Of a stretch of DNA of 64,000 nucleotides, positions 21,352 to 64,000 are shown piece after piece. The translations under genes were made by a program, and so were the position numbers. Position 1 is the stretch's first letter, and every line of letters begins with the position of its first letter. Source of the DNA: Candidatus Bathyarchaeota archaeon (GTDB lineage: Archaea; Thermoproteota; Bathyarchaeia; TCS64; PIYN01); assembly GCA_003601775.1 (NCBI GenBank), contig PIYN01000001.1, positions 27,758 to 91,757 of the forward strand, written 5' to 3'. Below the pieces are notes generated by a model. That model ran no database searches. It was given only the letters and a program-made list of their open reading frames with translations, and was not told the DNA's origin.

Positions 21352-21906
21352 TTAACGTGTTACGAGTCCTTCGCGCTGAGATACGGTCTCAGGCGAGGAT
21401 CCCTCGGTTGTCTCCATCACTTCAGGACGACATGGCACTATCATGACTGAGTCACTACCCTGGAAGCATGTTCCATCGTAGGTATAGCCTGTAAGGGTCG
21501 CCTCGGTGCTCGAGGGCTCCAGCTGGAGATCTCGGATCCTGAAGAAGAGGAGCAGGTCGAGGTCTCCCTCCCTATCAACGTCCAGGAGGCAGCTCCATAG
21601 GGGCGGGGCTCCGGCGAAGAGGACGGTCGTGGTATTGACGTCGCTTGCATCGAAGTCGTCGGTCGTTAGGACCGCCACCAGGACGACTCCGTGGGAACCG
21701 AGGCAGATGATGTTCAGGGGGGACCAGGGGCGGATGTCTATCTCAACCTCCCTGCATAGGGGGCGTATGGTGTAGGAGAACCTCCACTCATACCTGCCTC
21801 CCGGGTGGAGGTGGGAGGACAGGAAGCCCCCTAAGGCAACCGCTGTCAGCAAGAGCACTATGACGTAAAGGTGCCTCCTCAACCCCAGGTCCCGCCGACC
21901 ATTCAA
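21352..21906 (-). CDS. small N-terminally membrane-anchored protein with extracellular Cys-containing domain (hypothetical)
   Basis: N-terminal TM helix (LYVIVLLLTAVALGGFL) followed by a ~150-aa soluble domain. There is a TATA-like element in the upstream spacer. Confidence 0.35.
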   Translation of the reverse strand: MNGRRDLGLRRHLYVIVLLLTAVALGGFLSSHLHPGGRYEWRFSYTIRPLCREVEIDIRPWSPLNIICLGSHGVVLVAVLTTDDFDASDVNTTTVLFAGAPPLWSCLLDVDREGDLDLLLFFRIRDLQLEPSSTEATLTGYTYDGTCFQGSDSVMIVPCRPEVMETTEGSSPETVSQREGLVTR

Positions 21907-23205: not shown

Positions 23206-23699
23206 CTATTCACCTCCCAGAGCATGTGCCCCAGCGCCGGGAGTATGATCCTCTTTAAACCCAGCTCCACGGCGCCCCGGGAGCCGGGGAGGGAGAAGAT
23301 TATCTTCCTCCCCACCGTCCCCGCCATGGCCCTGCTGAGGATCGCCGCCTCCCCGATCTCCTCGTAGCTCAGCCTCCTGAAGAGCTCCCCGAAGCCCTCG
23401 AGCCTCTTCTCCAGGAGCTCCATGACGGCCTCGACTGTCTGGTCCTTGGAGCTTATCCCCGTCCCGCCGCTGGTGATGATCACCTCCACCCTCTCGTCGC
23501 TGAGGAGCCTCCTCAGGGCCTCCTTTATCGCCTCCCTGTCGTTCCCCACGATCTTGTAGGCGTGTACCCTGTGCCCGGCCTCCTCCAAGAGCTGGATGGC
23601 CCTCCTCCCCGTCTCGTCAGTCCTCTCATCCCTCGTGTCGCTCGTCACTAGGACGGCGCAGCCGGCGTGCTCCCTCCTCCTCTCCCTATGCTCCCTCAT
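23202..23699 (-). CDS. moaB: molybdenum cofactor biosynthesis protein MoaB/MogA (MoCF-binding domain)
   Basis: The sequence ITSGGTGISSKD, reverse-translated from 23202-23699, is the MogA/MoaB GGTG motif. I chose the internal Met start (MREHRE...) over the longer Arg/Gly-rich extension in the track ORF. Its stop overlaps the moeA start. Confidence 0.75.
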   Translation of the reverse strand: MREHRERRREHAGCAVLVTSDTRDERTDETGRRAIQLLEEAGHRVHAYKIVGNDREAIKEALRRLLSDERVEVIITSGGTGISSKDQTVEAVMELLEKRLEGFGELFRRLSYEEIGEAAILSRAMAGTVGRKIIFSLPGSRGAVELGLKRIILPALGHMLWEVNR

Positions 23700-23704
23700 C
23701 TCTC

Positions 23705-24166
23705 TCACTCCTTCCTCTTCTCCACCACTCGGACCTCTGTGATCCGGGTCGTTGGGTACTGCCCCTCCTCGTCCTTCTCTAGGTACTTCACCATGTCCCA
23801 GAGGGTGAGGAGGGCGACCGTCACGCCGGTGAGGGCCTCCATCTCCACCCCTGTCTTGTAGTCGGCGACGACCCTGCACCTCGCCTCCACGTGGTCCTCA
23901 CCTATCCTGAATGAGACGTCGACCTTCGTCAGGGGTATGGGGTGGCAGAGGGGTATCAGCTCCGAGACCCTCTTAGCGGCGAGGATCCCCGCGACCTCCG
24001 CGACGGGGAAGGGGTCGCCCTTCTTGATCGTCCCCTTCCTAATGGCCTCGAGGGTCTCCTTCCTCAGGAGGATCCTCCCAGCCGCCTCGGCGGTCCTGTG
24101 GACGACCCTCTTCTCCGAGACGTCCACCATGTCTAGGGGGTTGACCTCCCCGCCCCGCTCACCCAT
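23705..24166 (-). CDS. moaC: cyclic pyranopterin monophosphate synthase accessory protein
   Basis: 153 aa. Conserved MoaC motifs: MVDVSEK, AKRVSELIPLCHP and GVEMEALT. Confidence 0.85.
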   Translation of the reverse strand: MGERGGEVNPLDMVDVSEKRVVHRTAEAAGRILLRKETLEAIRKGTIKKGDPFPVAEVAGILAAKRVSELIPLCHPIPLTKVDVSFRIGEDHVEARCRVVADYKTGVEMEALTGVTVALLTLWDMVKYLEKDEEGQYPTTRITEVRVVEKRKE

Positions 24167-24584
24167 CTTCTTCGCCCTCCACCCAGAGGCCCCCCTCCGG
24201 GGTATACTCCTTCTTCCATATCGGCGCCAATCTCTTCACCTCCTCCAATATGAACCTACAGGCCTCGAAGGCCTCCTTCCTGTGGGCTGAGGCGACGGCG
24301 ATGAGGAGGATGTTCTCCGAGACCTTGAGCGTCCCGATGCGGTGGATGATCACGGCCTCCTCCACCCCAAACCTCTCGAGGACCCTCCTCCTGATCCCCT
24401 CCAGTTCCCTCAGGGCCATCTCCTCGTAGGCCTCCACCTCGAGGCGCTCCACACAGCGGCCCCGGGACTCCCCCCGGACGATGCCGAGGAAGGCAACGAT
24501 AGCCCCCGCATCCCTCCTCCTCAGGCCCTCGAGGACCTCCCCCACAGAGAAGTCCTCCCGAGTGATCCTGATCATCCCACTCAA
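24159..24584 (-). CDS. moaE: molybdopterin synthase catalytic (large) subunit
   Basis: 141-aa MoaE fold (IVAFLGIVRG...IHRIGTLKVSENILLIAVASAHRKEAFEAC). Translationally coupled to moaD and moaC. Confidence 0.8.
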   Translation of the reverse strand: MSGMIRITREDFSVGEVLEGLRRRDAGAIVAFLGIVRGESRGRCVERLEVEAYEEMALRELEGIRRRVLERFGVEEAVIIHRIGTLKVSENILLIAVASAHRKEAFEACRFILEEVKRLAPIWKKEYTPEGGLWVEGEEDG

Positions 24585-24817
24585 CCTCCACTCACAGATG
24601 GGAGGAGCGCCACGATATCCCCCTCCCTCAGCCTCCGCTCAGGGCCTGACCGGACGCCGTTGACGGCGACCAGCAGTTTCCTGCGTCCCCGTAACTCCGG
24701 GCGGGCCTCCCTCAGAGCCTCCAGGAGGTCCCTGACGGTGGAGCCCTCCTGGACCTCGACCTCCTCCCTCTCGAGGCCTACCTCCTCCCTGATGGAGGCG
24801 AAGTACCTGACGGTCAC
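24581..24817 (-). CDS. moaD: molybdopterin synthase sulfur-carrier (small) subunit, ThiS/MoaD fold ending in Gly-Gly
   Basis: The C-terminus is ...LLPSVSGG*, the diglycine typical of MoaD. The VTVRYFASIREE region is beta-grasp-like. The start is probably GTG at 24817 or TTG at 24823, not the long Arg-rich extension in the track ORF. Confidence 0.65.
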   Translation of the reverse strand: MTVRYFASIREEVGLEREEVEVQEGSTVRDLLEALREARPELRGRRKLLVAVNGVRSGPERRLREGDIVALLPSVSGG

Positions 24818-24824
24818 CCTCAAC

Positions 24825-25781
24825 TCAGTCCCTCCAATAGGGCTCTCTCCTGGAGACCGCCTCCTTGAAGGCCTCCACCAGCGCATCCCCTCCGCCTCCT
24901 CTCCTCAATAGGGGTGCTACATCCACGAGGTTATCGTTCCTCATCAGGCAGGGCTTCAGCCTCCCATCTGAGGTCACCCGGAGGCGTGTGCAGTACCTGC
25001 AGAACTCCGTGTTATGCATCGGTCTCACGATCTCCACCACCCCTCCCCCCTTCAGGTAGTACTGCCTCCTCCTCTGGAGCTCTCTCACCCGAACCCTCTG
25101 GGACCTCGCCTTCAGCATCTCCTCTATGTCACGGAGGTCGTGGTGGAGGCTCTCCCAGTAGGGCCCTGTCCCCGCCTGCACGGGCTGGAACTCGATGAGC
25201 TGTAGGATCGCCCCATGCTCCTTGGAGAACTCGATCATCCGGGGGATCTCCCCGTCGTTCAGACCCCTCAGGACCACCATGTTCAGCTTCACGGGCTCCA
25301 GGCCGCTCTCAATGGCTGCCTCCACCCCCTCCACCACCTCGTTGAGCATGTCCCTCCCCGTGATCCTCCTGAAGGTCTCGGGGTCCAGGGAGTGGAGGCT
25401 GATATTCGCCCGTCGCAGCCCCGCTTCGTGGAGGTCTTGAGCGAACTTCCCCAGGAGGGACCCGTTCGTCGTCATGGAGACCTCGTCGACGTGGGGGGCG
25501 ATCCCGGAGACGATCTCCACGATATCCCTCCGGATCAGCGGCTCCCCTCCCGTGAGCTTGACCTTCCTCATCCCCAGGGCCGAGGCGACCTCGACGAGTT
25601 CCACGATCTCCTCCGCAGAGAGTTCCCCATGGGGGTTCAGCTCCCCCTCCCTGTGACAGAAGAAGCACTCGAAGTTACACCTCTGTGTCACCGAGATCCT
25701 GAGGCTGTTCACGGGTCTCCCAAAGGGGTCACGGAGCAGTCCCCCTCCCCCCTCCCGTCCCATCTCCCACCCCTCGTCCAA
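24825..25781 (-). CDS. moaA: GTP 3',8-cyclase, radical SAM
   Basis: Radical-SAM cluster motif CNFECFFCHREG. The C-terminal auxiliary-cluster cysteines CRYCTRLRVTSDGRLKPC are present. The first gene of the moa operon. Confidence 0.85.
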   Translation of the reverse strand: MDEGWEMGREGGGGLLRDPFGRPVNSLRISVTQRCNFECFFCHREGELNPHGELSAEEIVELVEVASALGMRKVKLTGGEPLIRRDIVEIVSGIAPHVDEVSMTTNGSLLGKFAQDLHEAGLRRANISLHSLDPETFRRITGRDMLNEVVEGVEAAIESGLEPVKLNMVVLRGLNDGEIPRMIEFSKEHGAILQLIEFQPVQAGTGPYWESLHHDLRDIEEMLKARSQRVRVRELQRRRQYYLKGGGVVEIVRPMHNTEFCRYCTRLRVTSDGRLKPCLMRNDNLVDVAPLLRRGGGGDALVEAFKEAVSRREPYWRD

Positions 25782-25902
25782 GATGGTTTTATCCTAATAG
25801 TCGAGATTCCCTTAAAACTGTTATGTCGCTTCATGCATATCGAGGTTCTTTGATGGAAAAGGGTAATAACCCAGGGAGGGGAGTAGGTGATGGTGGAGAC
25901 TG

Positions 25903-26682
25903 ATGGTTCAGTTGGCTGAGATCACCTGGACGGATGCCAAGGAGTTCTTCTCGGAGTCGGATGTCGTGATCCTACCCGTGGGGAGCACCGAGCAGCATGG
26001 ACCGCACAACCCCCTGGGGACGGATTACCTGAACGCGGAGGCAGTGAGCCGGGTCGTCGGGGAGAGGACGAAGACCCTCGTCCTCCCCGTCATCCCCGTC
26101 GGGGTCTCCGAGCATCACAGGCAGTTCCCCGGGACCCTCTGGGTCCCGCCCCAGGTCTTCCGGGAGTATGTGGAGGCCGTCGCCCTCTCGGCGGCGAGCC
26201 ATGGGGCGAGGAAGATCGTCATCGTGAACGGCCACGGCGGGAACACGGCGAGCCTCCTGGAGGTCGCCGGTCACCTTAGGAGGGAGTGTGGGGTCTTCGC
26301 CGTCGTCGTCATGGCCTTCCCGCCTGGGATGATGGAGATCGGGGGAGGACATGCCGGGGCGGGGGAGACGAGCGCGAACCTCTACTGGCACCCCCATCTC
26401 GTCAAGATGGAGAGGGCGCCGAGGACGAGGCAGAAGGAGCGACTCGGGGGGCTGAGGATGCAGGGCATGGGTCGAGTCGGGCCGGCTCAGTTCCCCTGGG
26501 ACACCATCGACCTGACGGAGACCGGCCTCCTCGGAGGGGCTGGGCAGGACCTGGACGCTTCCACGGCCTCTGCGGAGAAGATCAAGCCGATGATGGAGAA
26601 GTTCCTCGACAACCTCTGCGAGTTCGTAGAGGCCCTGAAGAAGGAGGATGTCAAGAGTCTCCTGTGCAAGCCCCACAAGTAA
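25903..26682 (+). CDS. creatininase-family amidohydrolase (ArfB-like), paralog 2
   Basis: Motifs GSTEQHGPHNPLGTD and VNGHGGN. Same fold as the ORF at 4264-5061. Confidence 0.65.
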   Translation: MVQLAEITWTDAKEFFSESDVVILPVGSTEQHGPHNPLGTDYLNAEAVSRVVGERTKTLVLPVIPVGVSEHHRQFPGTLWVPPQVFREYVEAVALSAASHGARKIVIVNGHGGNTASLLEVAGHLRRECGVFAVVVMAFPPGMMEIGGGHAGAGETSANLYWHPHLVKMERAPRTRQKERLGGLRMQGMGRVGPAQFPWDTIDLTETGLLGGAGQDLDASTASAEKIKPMMEKFLDNLCEFVEALKKEDVKSLLCKPHK

Positions 26683-26781
26683 TCCCTCTTTTTATACTTA
26701 TGGGGTGGACTCAACGCCTCGCCTGTAGGTCGCTTCATTTATCTATCAAGAGAGGCATCTAACCTCCTTGGAGGAGTCCCC

Positions 26782-27723
26782 TTGAGGCATATCCTCATAG
26801 ACACGGACCCTGGGATCGACGACGCCCTCGCCCTGATCTTCGCCCTCAACTCCCCGGAGGCGGGGGTCGAGGGGGTCACGACCGTCGTGGGGAATGTCAC
26901 CCAGGAGAAGGCCCTCAAGAACGCGCTGAAGATCCTTGAGTTCCTCGGTGTCGAGGGAGTCCCCGTGGCCCCGGGGAGCACAAGGCCCCTCCTCCGGGAG
27001 CCGAGGGTCGCGGAGGAGATCCATGGGAAGACGGGGCTTGGAGGAGCCGTCCTCCCAGAGCCGAGGCTGAGGCCAGATGAGAGGTCCGCCGTGGGGCTCA
27101 TCCTCGATAAGGTGGAGGAGTTTGGGAGGGACCTGACGTTGGTCGCCATAGGTCCGCTCACCAACATCGCCTCGGCCCTCTTGGTCGAACCCCGTTTGGC
27201 GGAGGAGGTGGGGCGCCTCGTCATCATGGGGGGCGCCTTCCATGTGACGCCCTACGGGTTTGGGAACGTCACTCCCGTCGCCGAGTTCAATATCTGGCAT
27301 GACCCCGAGGCCGCGAAGATCGTCTTCGACTCCGGGATCCCCCTCACCGCCGTCGGCCTCGATGTCACCACGGACCCGAGGAACCGCCTCTCACCGGAAG
27401 CCCTCAGGGAGATTGAGGGCTTGGGCACGAGGAGGGCCTGCCTCGTCGCCGACCTCTGCCGGGACCTCGTCCACCGCTTCGGAGGCCTCAACCTCCACGA
27501 CCCCCTCGCCGTCGCCGCCGCCATCGACCCGAGGCTTGTGAGGACCAAGCCCTATGTCGTCGATGTGGAGACGAGGGGGGAGCTGACCCTTGGGATGACC
27601 ATCGCCGACCGGCGGGACCCGAGGCGTGTGTGGAGGCGGAGGGAGCCCAACGTCGACGTCTGCGTCTCCGTCGACGGGGACCGCTTTATGGAGCTATTCA
27701 TGGAGCGGGTCGTCGGGGTATGA
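26782..27723 (+). CDS. iunH: inosine-uridine preferring nucleoside hydrolase
   Basis: N-terminal DTDPGIDDALAL, the Ca-binding DxDxxxDD fingerprint of nucleoside hydrolases. 313 aa. Confidence 0.8.
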   Translation: MRHILIDTDPGIDDALALIFALNSPEAGVEGVTTVVGNVTQEKALKNALKILEFLGVEGVPVAPGSTRPLLREPRVAEEIHGKTGLGGAVLPEPRLRPDERSAVGLILDKVEEFGRDLTLVAIGPLTNIASALLVEPRLAEEVGRLVIMGGAFHVTPYGFGNVTPVAEFNIWHDPEAAKIVFDSGIPLTAVGLDVTTDPRNRLSPEALREIEGLGTRRACLVADLCRDLVHRFGGLNLHDPLAVAAAIDPRLVRTKPYVVDVETRGELTLGMTIADRRDPRRVWRRREPNVDVCVSVDGDRFMELFMERVVGV

Positions 27724-28679
27724 TCGACCTCGTCTGCTGTGGGGCCATAAACTGGGATATAACCCTCTTCGTGGAGAGGCTCCCACGCCCTGGGGAGGAG
27801 GTCCCCGTCCATGAGATCCAGAGAACCTCAGGCGGGACGGCGGCGAACGTCTCAGTGGCAGCAGCCCGCATCCTAGGCCCGGGCAGGGTAGCCTTCATCG
27901 GCGCCCTTGGCGGCGACGAGATCGCCGAGGAGCAGATCGCCATCCTCAGGGCTGAGGGGGTCGACCCATCCGGCGTCCTGAGGGTGCCGGGAAAGGAATC
28001 AGGGCAGGCCTACATCATCGTTGGTCCCGAAGGGGAGAACGAGATCCACACCTACTTCGGGGCAAACCTCCACCTCACCCCCCAATCCCTGAGAGACCAG
28101 GAGAGGCTTCGCCTCATCGAGGAGGCCAAGGTCACCGTCATCATGGACCCGCCCCTCGAGACGGCGAAGGCCCTCGCGGAGCTCTCCAAGGAGGAGGGGA
28201 ACAGGGTGATCTGGGACCCGGGCGTCTACGCGGAGCTCGGCCTCGCCGCTCTCAAGGGCATCCTCCGGAACGTCGACTACTTCATCCTCAACCACTTAGA
28301 GTTCGAGGGCCTCCTCGGGACGAGCGACCCATGGGAGGTCACGGCGAGGCTGGGGGCGGTGAACCCCAGCGTCAAGGCGGTCATTAAGAGGGGTGCGGAG
28401 GGGTGCATCCTCTGCTCCAGCGGTGAGGAGCCCACCTGGGTCAGGGCGGTCCCACTGGAGCGACTCGGGATGAGGGTGGTGAATACCGTGGGGTGTGGCG
28501 ACGCCTTCATCGGGGCCCTCGCCGCCTCCCTCGTAGAGGGCTTCGACGAGGTTGAGGCCTTGAGACGTGGCTGCGCAGCCGGGGCCTTCAAGGCGACGAG
28601 GAAGGAGACCCGAGGCGGACCGACGGCCGAGGAACTCCAGGAGTTGCTGAGGAGATGGGCGGAGCTGGAGGGGGGATAG
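27720..28679 (+). CDS. ribokinase/PfkB-family sugar or nucleoside kinase
   Basis: Has the N-terminal GG motif (VCCGAINWDI...GGTAANV). The C-terminal PfkB signature is VNTVGCGDAFIGAL. The start codon overlaps the iunH stop (ATGA). Confidence 0.75.
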   Translation: MIDLVCCGAINWDITLFVERLPRPGEEVPVHEIQRTSGGTAANVSVAAARILGPGRVAFIGALGGDEIAEEQIAILRAEGVDPSGVLRVPGKESGQAYIIVGPEGENEIHTYFGANLHLTPQSLRDQERLRLIEEAKVTVIMDPPLETAKALAELSKEEGNRVIWDPGVYAELGLAALKGILRNVDYFILNHLEFEGLLGTSDPWEVTARLGAVNPSVKAVIKRGAEGCILCSSGEEPTWVRAVPLERLGMRVVNTVGCGDAFIGALAASLVEGFDEVEALRRGCAAGAFKATRKETRGGPTAEELQELLRRWAELEGG

Positions 28680-28743
28680 CCGCCCCTTAGGGGCTCAATC
28701 AGGGCACCGTCGATTGGGATTTATGGCATGGGGGCGCTGGGCA

Positions 28744-28755
28744 ATTTATTTATAC
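28744..28755 (+). promoter_or_regulatory. TATA box of wtp operon promoter
   Basis: aTTTATTTATAc lies about 45 bp upstream of the wtpA ATG (28799) in an AT-rich spacer. Confidence 0.5.
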
Positions 28756-28765
28756 GCTTTCATCG

Positions 28766-28785
28766 ATATGTTTGTCAAAACATAT
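28766..28785 (+). promoter_or_regulatory. perfect 8-4-8 inverted repeat (ATATGTTT-gtca-AAACATAT), candidate operator for a tungstate/molybdate-responsive regulator
   Basis: Seen directly in the sequence: atatgtttgtcaaaacatat. It sits ~12 bp downstream of the TATA box and overlaps the predicted transcription start of the wtpABC operon. Confidence 0.5.
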
Positions 28786-28798
28786 TGAGGATGGGGCG

Positions 28799-29824
28799 AT
28801 GAGGGGGAAGATCCTCCTGGGGTTGGTCTTGGCCGCCGTGGTGGCCTTGGGGCTCTTCCTCGGCCCCCTGTCGAGGCGGGGGGTCGTCCTGAGGGTCTTC
28901 TGTGCCGGGAGCCTCACCCTGCCCCTGGAGGAGATCAAGGGGGAGTTCGAGCGACAGCATCAGGACGTCAGGGTTGAGATCGAGCCCTCGGGGAGCGTCG
29001 CCTGCGTGAGGAAGGTCGTCGAGGTCGGTAAGGCCGCGGACGTCGTCGCCGTGGCGGACCATAGACTCATCCCCACCATGATGATGCCGGAACACGCCGA
29101 CTGGTACATCGTCTTCGCCACGAATCAGATGGTCCTGGCCTACTCGAATAGCAGCCGGCACGCGGGGGAGGTCAACTCCATCAACTGGTACGAGGTCCTA
29201 CGGGACCCGGAGGTCCGGTGGGGCTTCTCGAACCCCAACATCGACCCCTGCGGCTACAGGGCCCTGATGGTGATCCAGCTCGCGGAGTGGCTGTACAACG
29301 ACTCCAGCATCTTCGACGACCTCATCATCGAGAACACGGCCATCAAGGCCTCGGAGGAGGGTGGCAGGTGCTCCATCCTGGTCCTAAAGGACCTTGAGCC
29401 GAACAGCAAGCGGGTCACTGTCCGAGATAAGTCCGTCGATCTCCTATCCCTCTTGGAGGAGGGGGGGCTGGATTATGCCTTCGAGTACCTCAGCGTCGCC
29501 GTACAGCACAACCTCAACTACGTGGTCCTCCCTCCAGCCATCGACCTCAGCGACCTCAGTAGAGCTGAGGAGTATGGGAGGGTCGTCGTCACCCTCGCCT
29601 CTGGAGAGAACATCATGGGGGCGCCGATAACCTACGGTGTCACGATACCGAAGAATGCTCCGAATAGGGATCTCGCCGAGGAGTTCATTGAGTTCCTGAT
29701 CGGCGACCCCGGGAGGGAGGTCTTCTCAAGGCTCGGGCAGCCCTCTCTCTCACCGGCGGTTGCCAGCGATCTGGAGGCCCTCCCCCCCTCCCTCAGGCCC
29801 TACTGCGAGGAGGCGTCTCCATGA
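28799..29824 (+). CDS. wtpA: tungstate/molybdate ABC transporter substrate-binding protein (WtpA/ModA-like)
   Basis: An N-terminal signal/TM anchor, then FCAGSLTLPLEE...PSGSVACVRKV...VADHRLIP. This is the periplasmic-binding-protein type II fold of the ModA/WtpA family. It is the first gene of a three-gene ABC operon next to Moco biosynthesis. Confidence 0.7.
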   Translation: MRGKILLGLVLAAVVALGLFLGPLSRRGVVLRVFCAGSLTLPLEEIKGEFERQHQDVRVEIEPSGSVACVRKVVEVGKAADVVAVADHRLIPTMMMPEHADWYIVFATNQMVLAYSNSSRHAGEVNSINWYEVLRDPEVRWGFSNPNIDPCGYRALMVIQLAEWLYNDSSIFDDLIIENTAIKASEEGGRCSILVLKDLEPNSKRVTVRDKSVDLLSLLEEGGLDYAFEYLSVAVQHNLNYVVLPPAIDLSDLSRAEEYGRVVVTLASGENIMGAPITYGVTIPKNAPNRDLAEEFIEFLIGDPGREVFSRLGQPSLSPAVASDLEALPPSLRPYCEEASP

Positions 29825-30627
29825 GGGGCTTAGATCTTCTCAGGCGCTACCCCCTCTCCGTGCTCTTCGCCGCCGTCGGCTCCCTGCTCCTCCTCTTCAC
29901 CGTCGTCGTCCTCTTTAACATGGTCTTCAGGCAGGTGGTCCTCAGGCCTGAGGGCCTCCTTGAGGCCGTCCGGGACCCCACAGTGATCCGCTCCATAGGC
30001 CTCACGATGTACGCCTCCCTCATGGCCACCCTCATCGCCGTCTCCCTTGGGACGCCCCTCGCCTACCTCCTCGCGAGGCATAGGTTCCCGGGGAAGAGCC
30101 TGGCGGAGGCCCTCGTCGACGTCCCCGTCGTCATCCCCCACAGCGTCGCGGGGATCGCCCTCTACGCCCTCTTCATGAGACACGGCGCCGTGGGGCGGGC
30201 CTTCTCCAGGCTGGGGGTCGTCTTCGAGGACTCCCTCTGGGGGGTCGTCGTCGCGATGCTCTTCGTCAGCGCTCCCTTCTACATCAACGCCGCCCGAGAA
30301 GGCTTCCGAGGTGTCGATCCGAGGTTGGAGAGGGTGGCGAGGAGCCTCGGCGCCGGGCAGTGGACGACCTTCTACAGGGTGACCCTTCCCCTCTCCCTCA
30401 GGAGCCTCATCTCGGGGGCGGTGATGTCCTGGGCCCGGGGGATCAGCGAGTTCGGCGCCATCATCTTCCTCGCCTACTACCCCATGGTCGCCCCCACCCT
30501 CATCTACTACAGGTTCACTATCCACGGCCTCACCGGCTCCCAGCCCGTCGCCGTCCTCCTCATCCTCCTCTGCCTCGCCATCTTCCTCGCCCTCCGCCTC
30601 TACACACGCCCAAGGAGAGGAAGGTGA
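29821..30627 (+). CDS. wtpB: tungstate/molybdate ABC transporter permease
   Basis: A 6-TM permease with the ABC-2 EAA-like loop (ARSLGAGQWTTFYRVTLP). It overlaps its neighbours at both ends (ATGA). Confidence 0.7.
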   Translation: MRGLDLLRRYPLSVLFAAVGSLLLLFTVVVLFNMVFRQVVLRPEGLLEAVRDPTVIRSIGLTMYASLMATLIAVSLGTPLAYLLARHRFPGKSLAEALVDVPVVIPHSVAGIALYALFMRHGAVGRAFSRLGVVFEDSLWGVVVAMLFVSAPFYINAAREGFRGVDPRLERVARSLGAGQWTTFYRVTLPLSLRSLISGAVMSWARGISEFGAIIFLAYYPMVAPTLIYYRFTIHGLTGSQPVAVLLILLCLAIFLALRLYTRPRRGR

Positions 30628-31676
30628 TGATCGTCCTCGAGGGGGTGAGCCTCACACTCGGCTCCTTCCAACTCAGGAGGATCAGCCTCAGGGTGGAGAG
30701 GGGGGAGTACTTCATCGTTCTCGGGCCGACGGGGGCCGGGAAGACCCTCCTCCTCGAGACCATAGCGGGCTTCCACACCCCGAGGGAGGGGCGGATCCTC
30801 ATAGATGGGGTGGACATGACCTACGCCCCGCCCGAGGAGCGGGGGATCGGCTTCGTCTACCAGGACTACCTCCTCTTCCCCCACTTGACGGTGGAGGAGA
30901 ACATCTCCTTCGGCCTGAGGGCGCGGGGACTCGCAGAGGAGGAGATCAGGGAGAGGGTCGCCCAAGTCATGAAGTCCCTCGGCATCCCACACCTCAGGGG
31001 CAGGTACCCGTCAACGCTCTCAGGGGGGGAGCAGCAGAGGGTCGCCCTCGCCAGAGCCCTGGCCATCTCCCCCAAGGTCCTCCTGCTGGATGAGCCCCTC
31101 AGCGCCCTCGACCCCCAGACGAGAGAGACGTTGAGGAGGGAGTTGAGGAGGGTGCACGAGTCCCTGGGGACGACGACGATCCACGTGACCCATGACAGGG
31201 TGGAGGCCCTCACGCTGGGCGATAGGGTGGCCGTCCTGATGGGGGGTGAGGTCGTTCAGGTGGGGGCGCCCGAGGAGGTCTTCGAGAGGCCTGGGGGGGT
31301 GGAGGTGGCGGAGTTCCTGGGCGTTGAGAACATCCTCAGCGGCGTGGTGAGGGCAAACAGGGGTGGCATAGCCGTCGTGGAGACCGAGGGTTTCCAAGTC
31401 ACCGCCATCTCCCCTATAGAGAGCGGCGAGGTGACCCTCTTCATCAGGCCCGAGAACATCATCCTCTCACGGAGCCGCCTGGAGAGCAGCGCGAGGAACT
31501 GCGTGGAGGGGCGGGTCACGGAGGTCACCCCCCTCGGCCCCACCGTCCTCGTCCACCTCGACAACGGGCTGAAGGCATCGATCACGAGGAGGTCCCTCGA
31601 GGAGATGGGGCTACGCCCCGGGAGGAGGGTCTACGCCTACTTCAAGGCAACCTCTGTCCACGTCGTCCCCAAGTAG
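30627..31676 (+). CDS. wtpC: tungstate/molybdate ABC transporter ATP-binding protein with C-terminal TOBE-like domain
   Basis: Walker A GPTGAGKT, signature LSGGEQQRVALARAL, Walker B LLLDEPLSALD, H-loop, plus a C-terminal MOP/TOBE-like beta domain. I used the internal ATG (MIVLEGV) as the start, not the long Pro/His-rich extension in the track ORF. Confidence 0.75.
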   Translation: MIVLEGVSLTLGSFQLRRISLRVERGEYFIVLGPTGAGKTLLLETIAGFHTPREGRILIDGVDMTYAPPEERGIGFVYQDYLLFPHLTVEENISFGLRARGLAEEEIRERVAQVMKSLGIPHLRGRYPSTLSGGEQQRVALARALAISPKVLLLDEPLSALDPQTRETLRRELRRVHESLGTTTIHVTHDRVEALTLGDRVAVLMGGEVVQVGAPEEVFERPGGVEVAEFLGVENILSGVVRANRGGIAVVETEGFQVTAISPIESGEVTLFIRPENIILSRSRLESSARNCVEGRVTEVTPLGPTVLVHLDNGLKASITRRSLEEMGLRPGRRVYAYFKATSVHVVPK

Positions 31677-35049: not shown

Positions 35050-35658
35050 TTGAGGGTCGAGGACCGGCTGAGGGAGCTCCGGAGCTTCCCGGAGGAGCTT
35101 GGGATAGATGTGAGGACCCCTGAGGGGCGGTTCAAGTGGTTCCTCGCCTCTCTTCTCTTCGCGAAGAGGATCTCCGCTGAGATAGCCAAGAGGACCTACC
35201 TGAGGTTCGAGGAGGAGGGGCTGACGACCCCTGAGCGCATCCTGGAGGCCGGCTGGGACAGGCTGGTCGAGGTCCTGGACTCAGGGGGCTACGTGAGATA
35301 CGACTTCTCGACGGCCTCACGCCTCCTCGAGAACATGGAGAAGCTGCTCAAAGTCTACGGCGACCTGGAGGAGCTCCACAGACGCTCCAGAGACCCCAGG
35401 GACTTGGAGAGGCGGCTCAGGGAGTTCAAGGGCCTCGGACCCGTGGGGGTGAACATCTTCCTCAGGGAGCTCAGAGGGATATGGCCCAAGGCCAGGCCAG
35501 AGCCCTCCAAGATCGCCGTGGATATGGGGGAGAGGCTGGGCCTGGAGGATCCCGTGCCCTATGAGTCTGCCCTGGTGAGGGTGAGGCTCGAGTACTGTAA
35601 GAGGCGTCGATGTGGGGAGTGCCCGGTCAGGGACTACTGTAGGGAGCCCTTGGCCTGA
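35050..35658 (+). CDS. HhH-type DNA glycosylase-like protein with C-terminal Cys cluster (tentative)
   Basis: A GLGPVGVNIFLRELRG helix-hairpin-helix-like element and a C-terminal CKRRRCGECPVRDYC motif. The assignment is weak. Confidence 0.35.
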   Translation: MRVEDRLRELRSFPEELGIDVRTPEGRFKWFLASLLFAKRISAEIAKRTYLRFEEEGLTTPERILEAGWDRLVEVLDSGGYVRYDFSTASRLLENMEKLLKVYGDLEELHRRSRDPRDLERRLREFKGLGPVGVNIFLRELRGIWPKARPEPSKIAVDMGERLGLEDPVPYESALVRVRLEYCKRRRCGECPVRDYCREPLA

Positions 35659-43898: not shown

Positions 43899-44789
43899 TT
43901 GGGTGAGACATTGATTAAGACAAATAAGGACAAGCTTGTCGTACAAGAGGTACTAGGGAAGATCTCTCATCCTGTAATGATTCAGAGTCGGGGCTATGTG
44001 ATCACCTGGGACGGCAAACCCAAGATCGGCTTGGGAATAGGCGGAATAAAATACAACGTTAAGGTGGGCGACCCCATCTTCGGTTGGCCTGAGGCAGAGT
44101 ACCTGGAGCCTGGCGTGGCCCTAGAGGGGATCGATGATCGGGCTAAAGGAGCGCTGCTCAATCTGAGTTGCGTCGGGAACGAAGTTAAGGTGATAAGTGG
44201 GGAAGGAAAGGGCCTTAAAGGCGTAGTGACCGGGAAGGCCGGATACGCTGGGGCGCCGGCGCACGTCCTCGCACATTTCTCGGATGAGGACTTAGAGAAG
44301 CTGGCCATCGGGGACAAGGTCCGTATCAAGGCAGAGGGCGTGGGTCTAGAGATCAAAGGCTTTGAGGGCAAGGTATTCAATGTATCACCCTCCTTCCTAG
44401 AATCCCTTGATCTTGAGCTAGAGGACGGGGAACTCATAGTACCCGTTGTTAAGGAGATCCCCGCGTACGCGATGGGCTCAGGCGTTGGTGGGGGAGCAGC
44501 GATGAGCGGGCACTGGTGTATACAGACCTGCCCACCTGAATTGGTGAAGGAATTGGGCTTAGAGGATCTAAGAATCGGCGATTTAGTGGCATGTAGAGAT
44601 ATCCTCATGTTATACGGTAAAGGTTACTATAAGGGGGCCATAACAGTCGGTATCATCGCGTTCGGTGCAAGCGATCGAGGGGGACATGGAGCAGGCGTCT
44701 TCGCTATCGCCGTATCGAAGGAGGGGAAGATTCGACCGAGGATCGATCCTGAAGCAAATGTAGCGAAGTATCTAGGACTGAAGAGATGA
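43899..44789 (+). CDS. conserved hypothetical protein, paralog A of a tandem pair (possibly a DUF4438-like family, unverified)
   Basis: 296 aa, soluble, Gly-rich motifs (IGLGIGGIKYNV, AMGSGVGGGAAMSGHWC, GASDRGGHGAGV). Collinear along its whole length with the downstream gene. Lower GC than the genome. Confidence 0.45.
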   Translation: MGETLIKTNKDKLVVQEVLGKISHPVMIQSRGYVITWDGKPKIGLGIGGIKYNVKVGDPIFGWPEAEYLEPGVALEGIDDRAKGALLNLSCVGNEVKVISGEGKGLKGVVTGKAGYAGAPAHVLAHFSDEDLEKLAIGDKVRIKAEGVGLEIKGFEGKVFNVSPSFLESLDLELEDGELIVPVVKEIPAYAMGSGVGGGAAMSGHWCIQTCPPELVKELGLEDLRIGDLVACRDILMLYGKGYYKGAITVGIIAFGASDRGGHGAGVFAIAVSKEGKIRPRIDPEANVAKYLGLKR

Positions 44790-45658
44790 GGGTTATGCTG
44801 AAAACGAATAAGGACCGATTGGTCAAGATGGCGGTGATGGGGGAAGTTGTCCACCCCTCATCCAGAGGCTACACCGTTGATTTTGAGGGCAAGCCTAGGA
44901 TGGGCTTGGGAATGTCAGGTATCAAGTACAACGTCACGGTCGGCGATCTATGTTACGGGTGGGCGGAGGAGGAGCATATGGAGCCCGGCCTCAGCATAAG
45001 TAACAGGGATCCAAATGAGAATGCCGCCCTCTCAGTCTTGGCATGTATCGGTAACGAGGTAAAGGTAGTGACAGGGGAGGCGAGAGGCGCGAAGGGGTAT
45101 ATCATCGGGAAACATGGGAACTTCATGGCCTGGCTCAGAGAGGAAGATCAGGAGAAGGTCAACATAGGGGATAAAATCCAGGTGAAGGCCTGGGGGGTTG
45201 GACTTAAGATCGAGGGCTTCGATGATGTTAAGGTGAATAAACTAGACCCAGACCTCTTGGAGAGGATGGGAATCACCGTGGAGAATGGAAGACTCGTGGT
45301 GCCCGTCGTTAACGAGTTCCCCGCTTATATCATGGGCTCGGGTTATGGGATGTGGCCTGTAACCATAGACTATGACATTCAGACCACCTGCCCTGAGGTC
45401 TATGATGAGCTAGGGTTGAAGAAGCTACGTTTCGGAGACATAGTCGCATTAAAGGACCAACTAAACTGGTGGGGACGAGGGTATTACAAGGGAGCCATCA
45501 CTATAGGTGTTGTTATCCATGGTTGGAGTTCCCACGCCGGACATGGACCGGGGGTGACCACCCTTCTGAGCACGAAGTCCGACAGGATCATCACTAAGAC
45601 CGACCCGGATGCGAACATAGCCTATTACCTCGGGATAAGAGAGAAGTCCAAGAAATGA
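44786..45658 (+). CDS. conserved hypothetical protein, paralog B of tandem pair (translationally coupled to paralog A)
   Basis: 290 aa. It shares the motifs GLGMSGIKYNV, VPVVNEFPAYIMGSG and GYYKGAITIG with paralog A. The ATGA overlap at 44786-44789 indicates coupling. Confidence 0.45.
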   Translation: MRVMLKTNKDRLVKMAVMGEVVHPSSRGYTVDFEGKPRMGLGMSGIKYNVTVGDLCYGWAEEEHMEPGLSISNRDPNENAALSVLACIGNEVKVVTGEARGAKGYIIGKHGNFMAWLREEDQEKVNIGDKIQVKAWGVGLKIEGFDDVKVNKLDPDLLERMGITVENGRLVVPVVNEFPAYIMGSGYGMWPVTIDYDIQTTCPEVYDELGLKKLRFGDIVALKDQLNWWGRGYYKGAITIGVVIHGWSSHAGHGPGVTTLLSTKSDRIITKTDPDANIAYYLGIREKSKK

Positions 45659-61183: not shown

Positions 61184-62668
61184 TCAGTTCTCTTTCCTTT
61201 TCAGGTACTCCTCGGGGGTCATCTTGAACTTCTCCTCGACGGCCTGCCTGTGGAGGGTGTTCATGGTGCAGAAGGGTATGATCCTGCCGTCGGGTGTCGC
61301 GTAGTGGATGACGCATCTCTGGACGCGCTGGAGGTCGAAGTTGTAGGGGTCCATGAAGTGCATCGACCCTATCATGATCATGCGCATGTGGATATCCCTC
61401 AGGCTGTCGTAGTTCCCCTTCCAGATGACGGGGAGGATGTACTTCCTCAGCATCCCGAAGTTGATCTTGCTCAGCGCCGCCCTCGCGATGGAGAGCTTCG
61501 CCCTCGTCTTATGCCCCTCCTCAGCCAGCTTCACCGCCTCCTCGACGGCCTTGAAGAAGCCGTCTACGTCCACATACCTCGTTATCGGGGCCACCTTATC
61601 GCCGTCCTCGATGAGGTAGGTCGCCATCCCGCAGTGGGGGTGGGCGCTGAACTCGACGTACTTCCTATCCTTGAGGTGCTCCACGAGCCTCGATAGGGGG
61701 ACGACCGTCGGGACTGGGAACCAGTCCTCCTCCTTTATGAGGCCCTCGGTCTGCTCCTCGCAGAGGCGCATGAGGTCGGGGATCGTGATCCTCATCTTCT
61801 CTCTCTCCTTCCTGTTGATCCTCCCGGTGATGGAGACGGGCTGGAAGTTGACGCACCTCACGATGTCCCTGTGCTCTATTGCGAAGCGGATGATGTCGCC
61901 GATCTCTCCGTCGTTCACCCCCCGGACGAGGGTTGGGACGAGGACGACGCTCCTGAACCCCCCCTTCTTCAGGTTCTCCAGAGCCCTCTTCTTCACCTCG
62001 AAGAGAGGCCTCCCCCGAGCGATGATGTAGGGCTTCTCCGTCACCCCATCGAACTGGAGGTAGACGGTGCTGACCCCCGCCTCCTTCAACGTCCTGCAAT
62101 ACTCGACGCTCTCCGCCATCCTCAGCCCATTCGAGTCCACCTCGACGTGGTCGAAGCCGAGCTCCTTGGCCATCCTCACGAGCTCGGGGAGGTCCTCCCT
62201 CACCGTCGGCTCCCCCCCGGAGAACTGGAGGGCCGGGGGCTTCACGGGGTCGTTGGCCCGGAGGTTCTCCAGCATCGCCCTGATCTGCTCCTTCGTCGGT
62301 TCGTAGACATAGCCCACAGCACCAGCATGGGCGAAGCAGATGGGACAGTTCAGGTTACAGCGGTTCGTCACGTCGATGATGGCGAGGACGGTGTGGGACT
62401 TATGCTCGGGGCAGATGCCGCAGTCGTAGGGGCATCCCCTCACGGTCTTCGTCCTCGGGTTGTTCAGCTTCGTCCCTAGGTGGTCGTACCTCTCAGCCCG
62501 CCTGTACTGCTCATAGCTCCCCCAGTAGAGATCCTTGAAGTAGCCGTGCTCCGGGCAGGTCTTATCGATGTAGACCTTCCCCCCTTCCTCATAGACCCTC
62601 GCGTCGATGACCCTCAGGCACTCTGGACAGAGGCTCTTCGTCTCCTTGATGAGCTCCATACCTCGCAC
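61184..62668 (-). CDS. radical SAM protein with N-terminal rubredoxin-like Zn ribbon, GDGT-MAS/Tes-like architecture (putative tetraether lipid synthase)
   Basis: N-terminal CPECLRV...CPEHG and CPYDCGICPEH cysteine clusters. A radical SAM CNLNCPICF core. A ~250-aa C-terminal extension. At 494 aa, the size and layout resemble the archaeal tetraether synthase family. This identification is from recall only. Confidence 0.45.
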   Translation of the reverse strand: MRGMELIKETKSLCPECLRVIDARVYEEGGKVYIDKTCPEHGYFKDLYWGSYEQYRRAERYDHLGTKLNNPRTKTVRGCPYDCGICPEHKSHTVLAIIDVTNRCNLNCPICFAHAGAVGYVYEPTKEQIRAMLENLRANDPVKPPALQFSGGEPTVREDLPELVRMAKELGFDHVEVDSNGLRMAESVEYCRTLKEAGVSTVYLQFDGVTEKPYIIARGRPLFEVKKRALENLKKGGFRSVVLVPTLVRGVNDGEIGDIIRFAIEHRDIVRCVNFQPVSITGRINRKEREKMRITIPDLMRLCEEQTEGLIKEEDWFPVPTVVPLSRLVEHLKDRKYVEFSAHPHCGMATYLIEDGDKVAPITRYVDVDGFFKAVEEAVKLAEEGHKTRAKLSIARAALSKINFGMLRKYILPVIWKGNYDSLRDIHMRMIMIGSMHFMDPYNFDLQRVQRCVIHYATPDGRIIPFCTMNTLHRQAVEEKFKMTPEEYLKRKEN

Positions 62669-62816
62669 TACACCCCGATGTAAGGGCTATCCCGTTGATC
62701 ACTCCATAGTTATTTTAAAAGTATTCCCAACTCTCACCCTCGGATTGGTGAATCGACATCGGACGAGGAGAAGCCCTTCTCTAAGATGAGAGGTACCTCT
62801 TAACGGAGGCTCTCCT

Positions 62817-63381
62817 GTGAAGAGGGTCGAAGTCATATGCCCCAGGGACTGCTATGACTCCTGCCTTCTCACGGTACTCGTCGATAAGGACCGAGTCGTC
62901 TCCGTGAGAGAGTTCCGAGAACCTTGTGACCCAGGGGTTCACCTGCCCCCGAGGCGCCGGAGATCCGGAGAGGGGTCTGAGCCCCCTGCTGACTCAACTC
63001 CCCTTGAAGGCGGGTCGGGATGAGTTCATCATCCTCAACAGCGCTCTGTCCCAGTACACCCATACACAGTTCCAGGAAGTCTATGGACCCATCGCCCCAG
63101 TAGTCTGGCTGAACCCCAAGGACGCCGAGACTCTCAACATTAAGGACGGGGGAGAGGTCGAGTTCTACAACGAGTTGGGCTACGTAGTGGTGGAGGCCGT
63201 GGTCACTGATCGGGTCCCGAGGGGCGTCCTCTGGTCCCCGAGGCAGTTGACCGGGTTGAGGGGGCGGGCACAGAACCTCTTAGTCCCTCCCACAACCCAG
63301 AGGATCGGAGGTGGCCCCGTCTTCAACTTAACGAGGGTCAGGCTCCGTCCCAGGGGCGATGGTCCTGCTCCAGTCGGCTGA
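62817..63381 (+). pseudogene. remnant of a molybdopterin/tungstopterin (bis-PGD) oxidoreductase: N-terminal Fe-S/Mo-binding start joined to the C-terminal pterin-dinucleotide-binding domain, with a frameshift, ~500 codons missing
   Basis: ORF1 (MKRVEVICPRDCYDSCLLTVLVDKDRVVSV) matches the CxxCxxxC N-terminus of Mo-bisPGD enzymes. The overlapping frame then gives FTCPRGAG...ERGLSPL, which corresponds to the CxKG...RLxxPLxR segment. It passes directly into YTHTQFQEVYGPIAPVVWLNPKDAETLNIKDGGEVEFYNELGYVVVEAVVTDRVPRGVLWSP, a clear Molydop_binding C-terminal domain. Confidence 0.55.
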
Positions 63382-63391
63382 GAGGCGGGGC

Positions 63392-64000
63392 CTAAATCCA
63401 GCCCTGGGCTCTCAGGAGCTCGGCTAAGAGGATGGCGCAACCGGCGGCCCCCCTGATGGTGTTGTGTCCCAGGAGGACGAACTGGAGGGACCTCTCGTCG
63501 ATGCCGGGCCTCAGCCTCCCGACCGTCACGCTCATCCCCGGAACCGATCCCGCCATCCTGTCGAGGCGCGTCTGCGGCCTATCCCTCTCCTCCCTGAGGA
63601 TTATGGGGTTCTCGGGGGCCGTCGGGAGGCCGAGTTCCTGGGGCAGCCCCCTGAAGCCCCTGAGGGCCTCCCTCACCTCCTCCAGGTCCACCTCCTCCTC
63701 GGCCTCGAGGTAGACGGTCTCCAGGTGGCCGTCGAGGGTGGGTACCCTGTTGCAGGAGGCCGCGACGGAGAAGGAGGCCTCCTTCACTTTCTCCCCCTCC
63801 AGCCTCCCCAGGATCTTCAAGGTCTCCCTCTGCATCTTCTCCTCCTCCCTCTCTATGTAGGGGATGACGTTATCTATGATGGATAGGGAGGGGACGCCGG
63901 GGTATCCCGCGCCCGAGACGGCCTGCATCGTCGTCACTATGACCTTCTTGATGGTGAGGAGGTCGTGGAGGGGCTTGAGGGCGAGGACCAGGTTTATGGT
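63392..64000 (-). CDS. asd: aspartate-semialdehyde dehydrogenase (3' part; gene continues beyond window end)
   Basis: Contains the ASADH motif TMQAVSGAG (catalytic QAVSGAG). The in-frame upstream codons run to position 64000 (…TIKKVIVTTMQAVSGAG). Also NRVPTLDGHLETVYLE and a C-terminal LLGHNTIRGAAG. Confidence 0.8.
   Translation of the reverse strand, partial: TINLVLALKPLHDLLTIKKVIVTTMQAVSGAGYPGVPSLSIIDNVIPYIEREEEKMQRETLKILGRLEGEKVKEASFSVAASCNRVPTLDGHLETVYLEAEEEVDLEEVREALRGFRGLPQELGLPTAPENPIILREERDRPQTRLDRMAGSVPGMSVTVGRLRPGIDERSLQFVLLGHNTIRGAAGCAILLAELLRAQGWI

What the first reader, a model, noticed from the sequence alone, without database searches (positions are those of the whole stretch)
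62817..63381. Decayed Mo/W-bisPGD oxidoreductase gene: N-terminal cluster-binding start joined to the C-terminal pterin-binding domain, with an internal frameshift
Two short overlapping ORFs together encode only the first ~70 residues and the last ~90 residues of a formate-dehydrogenase or formylmethanofuran-dehydrogenase-type catalytic subunit. The middle ~500 residues are missing and a frame change lies near 62930-63020. This is a genuine pseudogene remnant in a genome that still maintains full Moco synthesis, so it records recent loss of a pterin enzyme. An alternative is a mini-protein with a new role.
Basis: partly seen in the sequence, partly recalled or inferred. Interest (0 to 1): 0.55.

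Follow-up and report, generated by a model that had tools for sequence, protein, structure and literature searches.

The report
Decaying molybdenum-enzyme pseudogene in Bathyarchaeota
This is the broken leftover of a roughly 655-residue molybdenum/tungsten-pterin enzyme gene in a Bathyarchaeota archaeon; it lacks its catalytic middle and is frameshifted, near-identical strains carry other broken versions, and it is an ordinary pseudogene.

Summary
ORF A (62817-63023) begins with the Fe4S4 domain of a Mo/W-bisPGD oxidoreductase. ORF B (62926-63381) ends with its Molydop_binding domain (Pfam 64 bits).

Compared with 68 intact relatives of about 650 aa, residues 57-525 are missing. These are the cofactor-binding and catalytic domains. 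The deletion is in frame and its junction lies at 62968-62976.

The frameshift is a separate lesion.

Assemblies of nine other near-identical strains show the same deletion junction, so it is not an assembly collapse.

Those strains form an allele series:
- one still has (GA)4 and an intact 188-aa ORF;
- two have a second indel;
- one keeps domains III and IV but has lost the start, and carries two frameshifts and a nonsense codon;
- one keeps only about 54 codons.

dN/dS of the remnant is 0.5-0.85, against 0.07-0.14 in the flanking genes.

No relative encodes a conserved short form. The parent enzyme belongs to an uncharacterised cytoplasmic clade. It is not a curated formate or formylmethanofuran dehydrogenase.

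Verdict: a genuine, recent pseudogene still eroding. It is of low interest.

The parts
62806..62810 (+). Shine-Dalgarno-like GGAGG, 6 nt upstream of the GTG start of ORF A. It is the retained translation signal of the ancestral gene.
   Evidence: Read from the sequence. ORF B has no such motif upstream. Function is inferred, not shown.
62817..62909 (+). Relic of codons 1-31 of the ancestral enzyme (frame A). It holds three of the four Fe4S4 cysteines: TGC at 62838, 62850 and 62862.
   Evidence: Pfam Molybdop_Fe4S4. tblastn to L007 residues 6-34.
62906..62912 (+). Frameshift site. This is a (GA)3 run; allele L168 has (GA)4 here. Loss of one GA unit moves the reading frame from A to B.
   Evidence: Direct DNA comparison of window and L168. 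A frame-B stop at 62905-62907 bounds the shift on the 5' side.
62910..63023 (+). Out-of-frame tail of ORF A, with no homology to the enzyme family. It ends at the TGA at 63021-63023.
   Evidence: Translations. The coding score in frame A is negative here.
62914..62973 (+). Relic of codons about 34-53 (frame B): SENLVTQGFTCPRGAGDPER. It includes the fourth Fe4S4 cysteine at 62944-62946.
   Evidence: tblastn to L007 residues 39-56 and L009 residues 38-56. Alignment with P0016.
62968..62976 (+). Junction of the in-frame deletion of about 1.41 kb (L007 residues 57-525). The sequence GAGAGGGGT lies in an imperfect microhomology.
   Evidence: Alignment with allele L166, which still has the deleted DNA and reads GGAGAAGGGT at the 3' breakpoint. 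Alignment to 68 full-length proteins.
62974..63381 (+). Relic of the C-terminal pterin-cap domain (domain IV, Molydop_binding; equivalent to L007 residues 526-660), with its TGA stop at 63379-63381.
   Evidence: Pfam PF01568 at 64.4 bits. tblastn 65% identity to L007. All invariant positions of alignment A3 are kept.
61184..62668 (-). Flanking gene, divergently oriented. It is a radical SAM protein with an HMPTM zinc ribbon (the methanopterin-biosynthesis type) and is not part of the relic.
   Evidence: Pfam labels on identical contigs. NCBI name 'radical SAM protein [Candidatus Bathyarchaeota archaeon]'.
63392..64000 (-). Flanking gene, convergent: the 3' part of aspartate-semialdehyde dehydrogenase, which runs off the window.
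   Evidence: Pfam labels on L001-L003. NCBI name.

Best explanation
The locus is a non-functional relic of a cytoplasmic Mo/W-bis(pyranopterin guanine dinucleotide) oxidoreductase gene of about 655 residues. The gene once sat between the radical SAM gene and asd in this Bathyarchaeota lineage.

Two lesions disable it in the window:
1. An in-frame deletion of about 1.41 kb joined codon about 53 to codon about 526. It probably arose by slippage or recombination at a microhomology of about 8 nt (GGAGA[G/A]GG). It removed domains II and III, which carry the metal ligand and bind both pterin cofactors.
2. One GA unit was lost from a (GA)4 run at 62906-62912. This splits what remained into ORF A (68 aa) and ORF B (151 aa).

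The promoter region, ribosome-binding site and start codon survive. A short junk peptide may therefore still be made, but no oxidoreductase can be.

Shown: homology, both lesions, the allele series and relaxed constraint. Inferred: the microhomology mechanism and the lack of function or expression. The order 'deletion first' is likely but not proven, because the GA run has changed more than once.
For: 1. Homology and lesions. Pfam and tblastn place the N-terminal Fe4S4 motif and the C-terminal Molydop_binding domain in two frames, with residues 57-525 absent.

2. No short relatives.
- 68 of 80 genome loci hold one intact ORF of about 647-715 aa beginning V..CPRDCYDTC. The rest are cut by contig ends, masked, or (L025, L069) full length with one frameshift.
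- In a search of 1.84 billion representatives, complete hits are 639-680 aa. Among the stronger hits the short ones nearly all match up to their own C-terminus, as N-truncated fragments would.

3. Reproducibility. The same junction occurs in the window and in L001, L002, L003, L004, L168, L170, L171 and L174 (L086 is the same contig as L002). These come from eight source assemblies made with different assemblers and differ by SNPs in the flanks.

4. Allele series.
- L168 has (GA)4 and one 188-aa ORF.
- L170 and L171 add a 1-nt deletion near 63006, and L170 also has a 1-nt insertion at 63353; L171's contig ends before that site.
- L166 keeps the DNA for residues about 278-660. It has lost codons 1 to about 277 and carries two frameshifts and a CAG>TAG nonsense codon.
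- L172 keeps only about 54 codons, with Cys1>Arg and a 48-nt deletion.
- L166 and the window each retain parts the other lacks, so both descend from a full-length ancestor.

5. Relaxed constraint.
- dN/dS of the C-domain is 0.53 (window vs L170) and 0.85 (window vs L166). The same genome pair gives 0.07 for radical SAM and 0.14 for asd. Fisher p = 0.017 against the flanks; the remnant is not different from neutral, p = 0.33.
- The codon-usage score of the C-domain lies in the lowest 1.6% of real-gene windows.

6. No partner gene is conserved next to intact family members, so loss of this one gene is self-contained.
Against: - One strain (L168) has an uninterrupted 188-aa ORF with a good ribosome-binding site. 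In L170 and L171 a second indel restores the frame from the ORF A start into the C-domain. Selection to keep domain IV translated would also produce this pattern.
- The surviving parts are barely decayed: 2 violations at 38 conserved positions, against a median of 1 and a maximum of 4 for intact members. The frame-B codon signal is still positive.
- The dN/dS estimates rest on 13-14 substitutions each and cannot exclude weak purifying selection.
- No expression data could be examined.
- No strain with an intact full-length gene was found, so the ancestor is inferred.
Confidence: 0.9

Rival explanations
1. It is a functional mini-protein. Either the 188-203 aa in-frame form (Fe4S4 domain fused to the pterin-cap beta-barrel) or ORF B alone acts as a stand-alone domain-IV protein like FwdD, for example as a cofactor-handling or regulatory subunit.
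For: - L168 encodes an intact 188-aa ORF with both Pfam domains and a GGAGG ribosome-binding site.
- L170 and L171 regain a continuous 203-aa frame through a compensating 1-nt deletion.
- The C-domain keeps all positions that are invariant in alignment A3.
- The best NCBIfam hit of ORF B is FwdD.
Against: - The FwdD score is 31.7 bits against a cut-off of 175, and the locus is not in an fwd operon.
- The commonest allele (window, L001-L003, L174) is frameshifted, and ORF B has no ribosome-binding site.
- L166 has a nonsense codon inside domain IV and no start codon. L172 lacks domain IV entirely.
- dN/dS is 0.5-0.85.
- The restored L170 frame garbles 32 residues, including the fourth cysteine.
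- No short homologue is conserved in any other lineage.
Confidence: 0.05
2. It is an assembly artefact: a full-length gene collapsed or was chimerically joined in the metagenome assembly.
For: - The window comes from an uncultured organism, and metagenome contigs can be chimeric.
- Two related contigs (L004 and L172) do look mosaic.
Against: - The identical junction and frameshift recur in eight other loci. They come from SPAdes, MEGAHIT and JGI assemblies of different samples, with distinct flanking SNPs.
- There is no long repeat at the junction that could cause a collapse; only 12-22 nt chance repeats were found.
Confidence: 0.01
3. It is an expression switch. Slippage at the (GA)3/(GA)4 run, or ribosomal frameshifting there, toggles production of the fused product.
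For: - The GA-run state conflicts with the SNP relationships. L168 groups with the window by SNPs but differs at the run, while L170 shares (GA)3. The run has therefore changed at least twice.
Against: - A run of 3-4 dinucleotides is very short for a contingency locus.
- The sequence has no recognisable slippery site for ribosomal frameshifting (own knowledge of known sites).
- The product would lack every catalytic part.
- The other alleles show plain decay.
Confidence: 0.02

Closest known systems
Mo/W-bisPGD oxidoreductase superfamily (DMSO reductase family). The closest solved members are acetylene hydratase 2e7z and E. coli formate dehydrogenase H 1aa6.
   Same: - The relic's ends match the superfamily's first domain (Fe4S4) and last domain (Molydop_binding).
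- Its intact relatives (for example L007, 660 aa) hit 2e7z at 9e-47 and 1aa6 at 9.5e-46.
- Those relatives have no conserved partner subunit, as with the stand-alone cytoplasmic members.
   Different: - The window copy lacks the whole Molybdopterin domain (PF00384) with the metal ligand.
- The parent clade reaches no curated family cut-off (Fdh-alpha 272 against 666 bits).
- It has a C-x3-C-x3-C cluster motif. At the position I take to be the metal ligand (by recalled comparison with FdhH, not from an alignment made here) it reads SICSKSGHEA, a Cys with no Sec-His pair (sequence). Its substrate is unknown.
FwdD/FmdD, the stand-alone Molydop_binding-domain subunit of formylmethanofuran dehydrogenase.
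   Same: ORF B is a protein of about 150 aa made almost only of a Molydop_binding domain. FwdD is its top NCBIfam hit.
   Different: - The score is 31.7 bits against a cut-off of 175.
- There is no fwd operon context.
- ORF B is demonstrably the 3' end of a truncated gene of about 655 codons.
Prokaryotic pseudogenes eroded by deletion and repeat slippage, such as those counted in sediment MAGs.
   Same: - Homology to an intact family, disabling lesions, relaxed dN/dS, and different lesions in sister strains.
- High-quality sediment MAGs, including Bathyarchaeia, are reported to carry 125-527 pseudogenes each (PMC13288992).
   Different: Nothing essential differs. This case is unusual only in how many structural alleles the public assemblies happen to capture.

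Membership tests
Mo/W-bisPGD oxidoreductase (functional member) | N-terminal Fe4S4 domain with four cluster cysteines in one polypeptide | tested here: not met
   All four Cys codons are present (62838, 62850, 62862, 62944). However, the first three are in frame A and the fourth is in frame B. Pfam scores 18.7 bits, below the 22.7 cut-off, unless the frame is repaired.
Mo/W-bisPGD oxidoreductase (functional member) | Molybdopterin domain (PF00384; domains II/III) carrying the metal ligand and the cofactor-binding folds | tested here: not met
   There is no PF00384 hit in either ORF. Residues 57-525 of L007 have no counterpart anywhere in the window.
Mo/W-bisPGD oxidoreductase (functional member) | C-terminal Molydop_binding domain (PF01568) | tested here: met
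   64.4 bits against a cut-off of 26.8.
Formate dehydrogenase alpha / FdhH (NCBIfam TIGR01591) | Score above the curated equivalog cut-off | tested here: not met
   The remnant scores 20.5 bits and the full-length relative L007 scores 272 bits, against a cut-off of 666. By recalled comparison with FdhH (not aligned here), the ligand position in L007 reads SICSKSGHEA, a Cys with no following His (sequence).
FwdD (NCBIfam NF042908) | Score above the curated cut-off and location in an fwd operon | tested here: not met
   31.7 bits against a cut-off of 175. The neighbours are a radical SAM gene and asd.
Pseudogene | Clear homology to an intact gene family, with disabling lesions absent from intact members | tested here: met
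   A 469-residue deletion plus a 2-nt frameshift. All 68 complete relatives are intact and about 650 aa long.
Pseudogene | Relaxed selective constraint relative to neighbouring genes | tested here: met
   dN/dS is 0.53 and 0.85, against 0.07 and 0.14 in the flanks. Fisher p = 0.017. Counts are small.
Pseudogene | Independent, non-nested lesions in sister lineages | tested here: met
   L166, L172, L170/L171 and L168 each differ from the window in structure.
Pseudogene | No functional product (no stable transcript or protein with activity) | not testable with these tools
   No transcriptome, proteome or read data are available here.

The most novel reading that the evidence does not exclude
The in-frame forms seen in some strains (188 aa in L168, 203 aa in L170/L171) might encode a real two-domain mini-protein, an Fe-S cluster domain fused to the pterin-cap beta-barrel. 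Its production would be switched on and off by slippage at the (GA)3/(GA)4 run. The window would then carry the 'off' state of a newly born small gene rather than dead DNA.
Probability: 0.04. Interest if true: 0.55.

Novelty: new member of a known kind. Interest (0 to 1): 0.15.

Why it matters
The finding has little importance on its own. It has three modest uses:

- Annotation. ORF B is deposited as 'hypothetical protein' (RJS90538.1, RLI33300.1) and should be flagged as a pseudogene fragment.
- Metabolic reconstruction. It shows that this Bathyarchaeota lineage recently lost one uncharacterised cytoplasmic Mo/W-pterin enzyme while keeping cofactor-synthesis and molybdate/tungstate-uptake genes. 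Those genes presumably serve other pterin enzymes such as formylmethanofuran dehydrogenase (inference).
- Illustration. Public metagenome assemblies happen to capture at least five structural alleles of one decaying gene: microhomology deletions, dinucleotide slippage, a nonsense codon and mosaic recombinants. This makes it a compact natural example of deletional gene erosion in an uncultured archaeon.

Tried and rejected
- Syntenic intact orthologue. A metagenome scan with the flanking radical SAM protein gave 80 loci (best 78% identity). None has asd, aspartate kinase, NUDIX or the Mo gene nearby, so no syntenic comparator exists at that distance. The sister species L169 (radical SAM 87% aa identity) has the block inverted and no Mo gene within 13 kb.
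- Own species in the genome collection. It was not found among the species representatives; the best hit was 65%.
- Closer intact relative. The 78% hit (L167) is itself decayed.
- Excess of substitutions in L004's 3' part. I first considered accelerated decay. It is explained by L004 being a mosaic of a window-type 5' part and an L170-type 3' part.
- Mobile element or long repeat at the junction. None was found.
- Rfam and tRNA scans. Nothing lies near the locus.
- Literature. No paper was found for the MAG accession or for this enzyme clade.
- Programmed ribosomal frameshift. Rejected for lack of a slippery site; this rests on sequence inspection only.
- Structure prediction. Not run, because a confident beta-barrel model would not discriminate between the hypotheses.

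Full report
**What is in the sequence**

Two overlapping + strand ORFs lie at 62817-63381, between a divergently oriented radical SAM gene (61184-62668, -) and the 3' end of aspartate-semialdehyde dehydrogenase (63392 onward, -).

- ORF A (68 aa) starts VKRVEVICPRDCYDSC. It matches the Pfam Molybdop_Fe4S4 domain over its first 32 residues (18.7 bits).
- ORF B (151 aa) matches Molydop_binding at 64.4 bits, E 1.2e-17.
- Removing one base to join the frames gives a 187-aa sequence that passes both Pfam cut-offs (27.3 and 63.6 bits).
- tblastn with a full-length relative (L007, 660 aa) places 62826-62909 (frame A) on residues 6-34, 62920-62973 (frame B) on residues 39-56, and 62974-63348 (frame B) on residues 526-650, with 65% identity and E 4e-44.
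- An alignment with 68 intact relatives shows that residues 57-525 are missing.

**The two lesions**

The large deletion is in frame. TQGFTCPRGAGDPER and the C-terminal domain are both read in frame B, and the junction is at 62968-62976.

The frameshift is a separate lesion further upstream. Allele L168 reads CCGTGAGAGAGAGTTCC where the window reads CCGTGAGAGAGTTCC. The window has therefore lost one GA unit from a (GA)4 run at 62906-62912.

A GGAGG motif lies 6 nt before the GTG of ORF A, whereas ORF B has no such motif. The old translation start therefore survives, but it now leads into a 68-aa product whose last 37 residues are out of frame.

**What the parent gene was**

A scan of species-representative genomes returned 80 loci.

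- 68 hold a single intact ORF of about 647-715 aa that begins V..CPRDCYDTC and ends ...IGGGPVFNSTRV.
- The rest are cut by contig ends or masked, or (L025, L069) are full length with one frameshift.
- The hosts include Bathyarchaeia, Thermofilaceae, Culexmicrobium, Archaeoglobus, Desulfobacterales and Chloroflexota.

A full-length member is closest to acetylene hydratase (2e7z, 9e-47) and FdhH (1aa6, 9.5e-46) among solved structures. It reaches no curated NCBIfam cut-off: Fdh-alpha scores 272 bits against 666. The remnant scores 31.7 bits against 175 for FwdD.

At the position I take to be the metal ligand, by recalled comparison with FdhH and not from an alignment made here, the family reads SICSKSGHEA (sequence). 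No neighbouring gene is conserved across the 80 loci.

The parent is therefore an uncharacterised, stand-alone, cytoplasmic Mo/W-bisPGD enzyme. 'Formate- or formylmethanofuran-dehydrogenase type' is only loosely right.

**Not an artefact**

The organism is named 'Candidatus Bathyarchaeota archaeon' in NCBI. There ORF B is deposited as a hypothetical protein (RJS90538.1, RLI33300.1).

The same junction is present in L001, L002 (and L086, the same contig), L003, L004, L168, L170, L171 and L174. These come from SPAdes, MEGAHIT and JGI assemblies of different samples and differ from the window by SNPs in the flanks. No long repeat or mobile-element end lies at the junction.

**The allele series, which is the decisive evidence**

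Near-identical strains carry structurally different versions of this locus. Their flanks are 96-99.9% identical in DNA.

- T1, L168: the deletion only. It has (GA)4 and one 188-aa ORF.
- T2, the window, L001-L003 and L174: T1 plus the GA loss. This is the commonest form.
- T3, L170 and L171: T2 plus a 1-nt deletion near 63006. L170 also has a 1-nt insertion at 63353; L171's contig ends before that site. The net -3 restores a 203-aa frame in L170 but garbles 32 residues, including the fourth cysteine.
- L004 is a mosaic of a T2 5' part and a T3 3' part. This explains its cluster of 15 substitutions in 245 bp.
- T4, L166:
  - The 5' untranslated region is joined, at a GAGGCTCTC microhomology, to about codon 278.
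  - Domains III and IV are still present, but with two frameshifts and a CAG>TAG nonsense codon.
- T5, L172:
  - Only about 54 codons remain, with the first cysteine changed to arginine and a 48-nt deletion.
  - They are joined to DNA that lies about 5.7 kb downstream in the other strains.

L166 keeps what the window lost, and the window keeps what L166 lost. Both must therefore descend from a full-length gene at this site.

L166 also supplies the 3' side of the window's breakpoint (GGAGAAGGGT against GGAGAGGGGT). This supports a microhomology-mediated deletion, which remains an inference.

A more distant relative (L167, 76% nt identity, GC 51%) is also N-truncated, twice frameshifted and carries a nonsense codon.

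**Selection**

- Between the window and L170, the C-domain has 8 non-synonymous and 5 synonymous changes (dN/dS 0.53). The same pair gives 0.07 for the radical SAM gene and 0.14 for asd. Fisher p = 0.017 against the flanks, and the remnant is not different from neutral (p = 0.33).
- Against L166 the value is 0.85.
- The frame-B codon score of the C-domain is positive but lies in the lowest 1.6% of real-gene windows.
- The surviving parts break only 2 of 38 family-conserved positions, against a median of 1 and a maximum of 4 for intact members. Inactivation is therefore recent.

**Context**

The window holds MoeA (21991-23205), a MoaB/Mog-like gene, MoaE, MoaA and a molybdate/tungstate-type ABC transporter (28772-31676). 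No MoaC, MoaD, MobA or other Mo/W enzyme was seen among the 39 ORFs scanned. 'Full Moco synthesis' is thus only partly verified.

Retention of these genes is expected if the organism has other pterin enzymes. The neighbouring methanopterin-type radical SAM gene hints at a Wood-Ljungdahl pathway that uses formylmethanofuran dehydrogenase; this is an inference.

**Rivals**

- A functional mini-protein is the only serious rival.
  - T1 is intact and T3 regains a frame.
  - However, the commonest allele is broken, T4 has a stop inside domain IV, and T5 lacks the domain.
  - dN/dS is high, and no short homologue is conserved elsewhere.
  - I give it about 5%.
- Assembly artefact is about 1%.
- A slippage switch is about 2%.

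**Verdict**

This is a genuine, recent pseudogene that is still eroding. Such relics are common in sediment MAGs, which carry 125-527 each (PMC13288992). It is a new instance of a known kind and of low interest (0.15).

Noticed in passing
window 21991-31676: Moco-related cluster: MoeA (21991-23205, -), a MoaB/Mog-like gene (23202-23879, -), MoaE (24159-24584, -) and MoaA (24825-25781, -). It also holds a molybdate/tungstate-type ABC transporter: a binding protein at 28772-29824 and an ATPase with a TOBE domain at 30360-31676.
   Followed up: partly
L172:1-990 (ENA ERZ27248349 k141_141114): In this allele only about 54 codons of the enzyme remain. They are fused to sequence 85% identical to L001:15774-16492, inside an HTH-CBS gene. 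Relative to the window-type order, asd, aspartate kinase and the HcyBio genes are skipped. This could be a real deletion of about 5.7 kb, a rearrangement or a chimeric contig. Its 5' breakpoint lies within a few bases of the window's own deletion junction.
   Followed up: partly
L169 (ENA ERZ23499022, sister species; radical SAM 87% aa identity): The block of the 116-aa gene, NUDIX and radical SAM is inverted relative to the window. A Lactamase_B gene sits where the relic would be. One inversion breakpoint coincides with the relic's position.
   Followed up: partly
L167:1740-2795 (JGI 3300033156, GC 51%): A more distant relative's copy of the same enzyme gene is also decayed. It is N-terminally truncated and has two frameshifts and one nonsense codon. 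This suggests repeated loss of the enzyme in this clade.
   Followed up: partly
L025:8434-10384 and L069:8452-10369: Two otherwise full-length family members, in Thermoproteota and Hecatellales MAGs, each carry a single frameshift. Whether these are real pseudogenes or assembly errors is unknown.
   Followed up: no
window 62906-62912 compared with L168 and L170: The state of the GA run, (GA)3 or (GA)4, disagrees with the SNP-based grouping of the alleles. The run must have slipped at least twice, or the alleles have recombined.
   Followed up: partly
window 17299-19518 (-), 19600-21345 (+), 21352-21906 (-), 26746-27300 (-), 35050-35658 (+): These ORFs have gene-like codon bias but no Pfam family at E <= 1e-5. 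Two of them are large (739 and 581 aa).
   Followed up: no
window 11751-17336 (+): A very large ORF of 1861 aa. It has an N-terminal CarboxypepD_reg domain and weak MG2 and SdrD_B matches, so it is probably a surface protein.
   Followed up: no
window 43899-45658 (+): Two adjacent paralogous DUF4438 genes of 296 and 290 aa.
   Followed up: no
window 935-1022 (+): tRNA-Ser (anticodon CGA). It is the only RNA gene found in the 64-kb window.
   Followed up: yes
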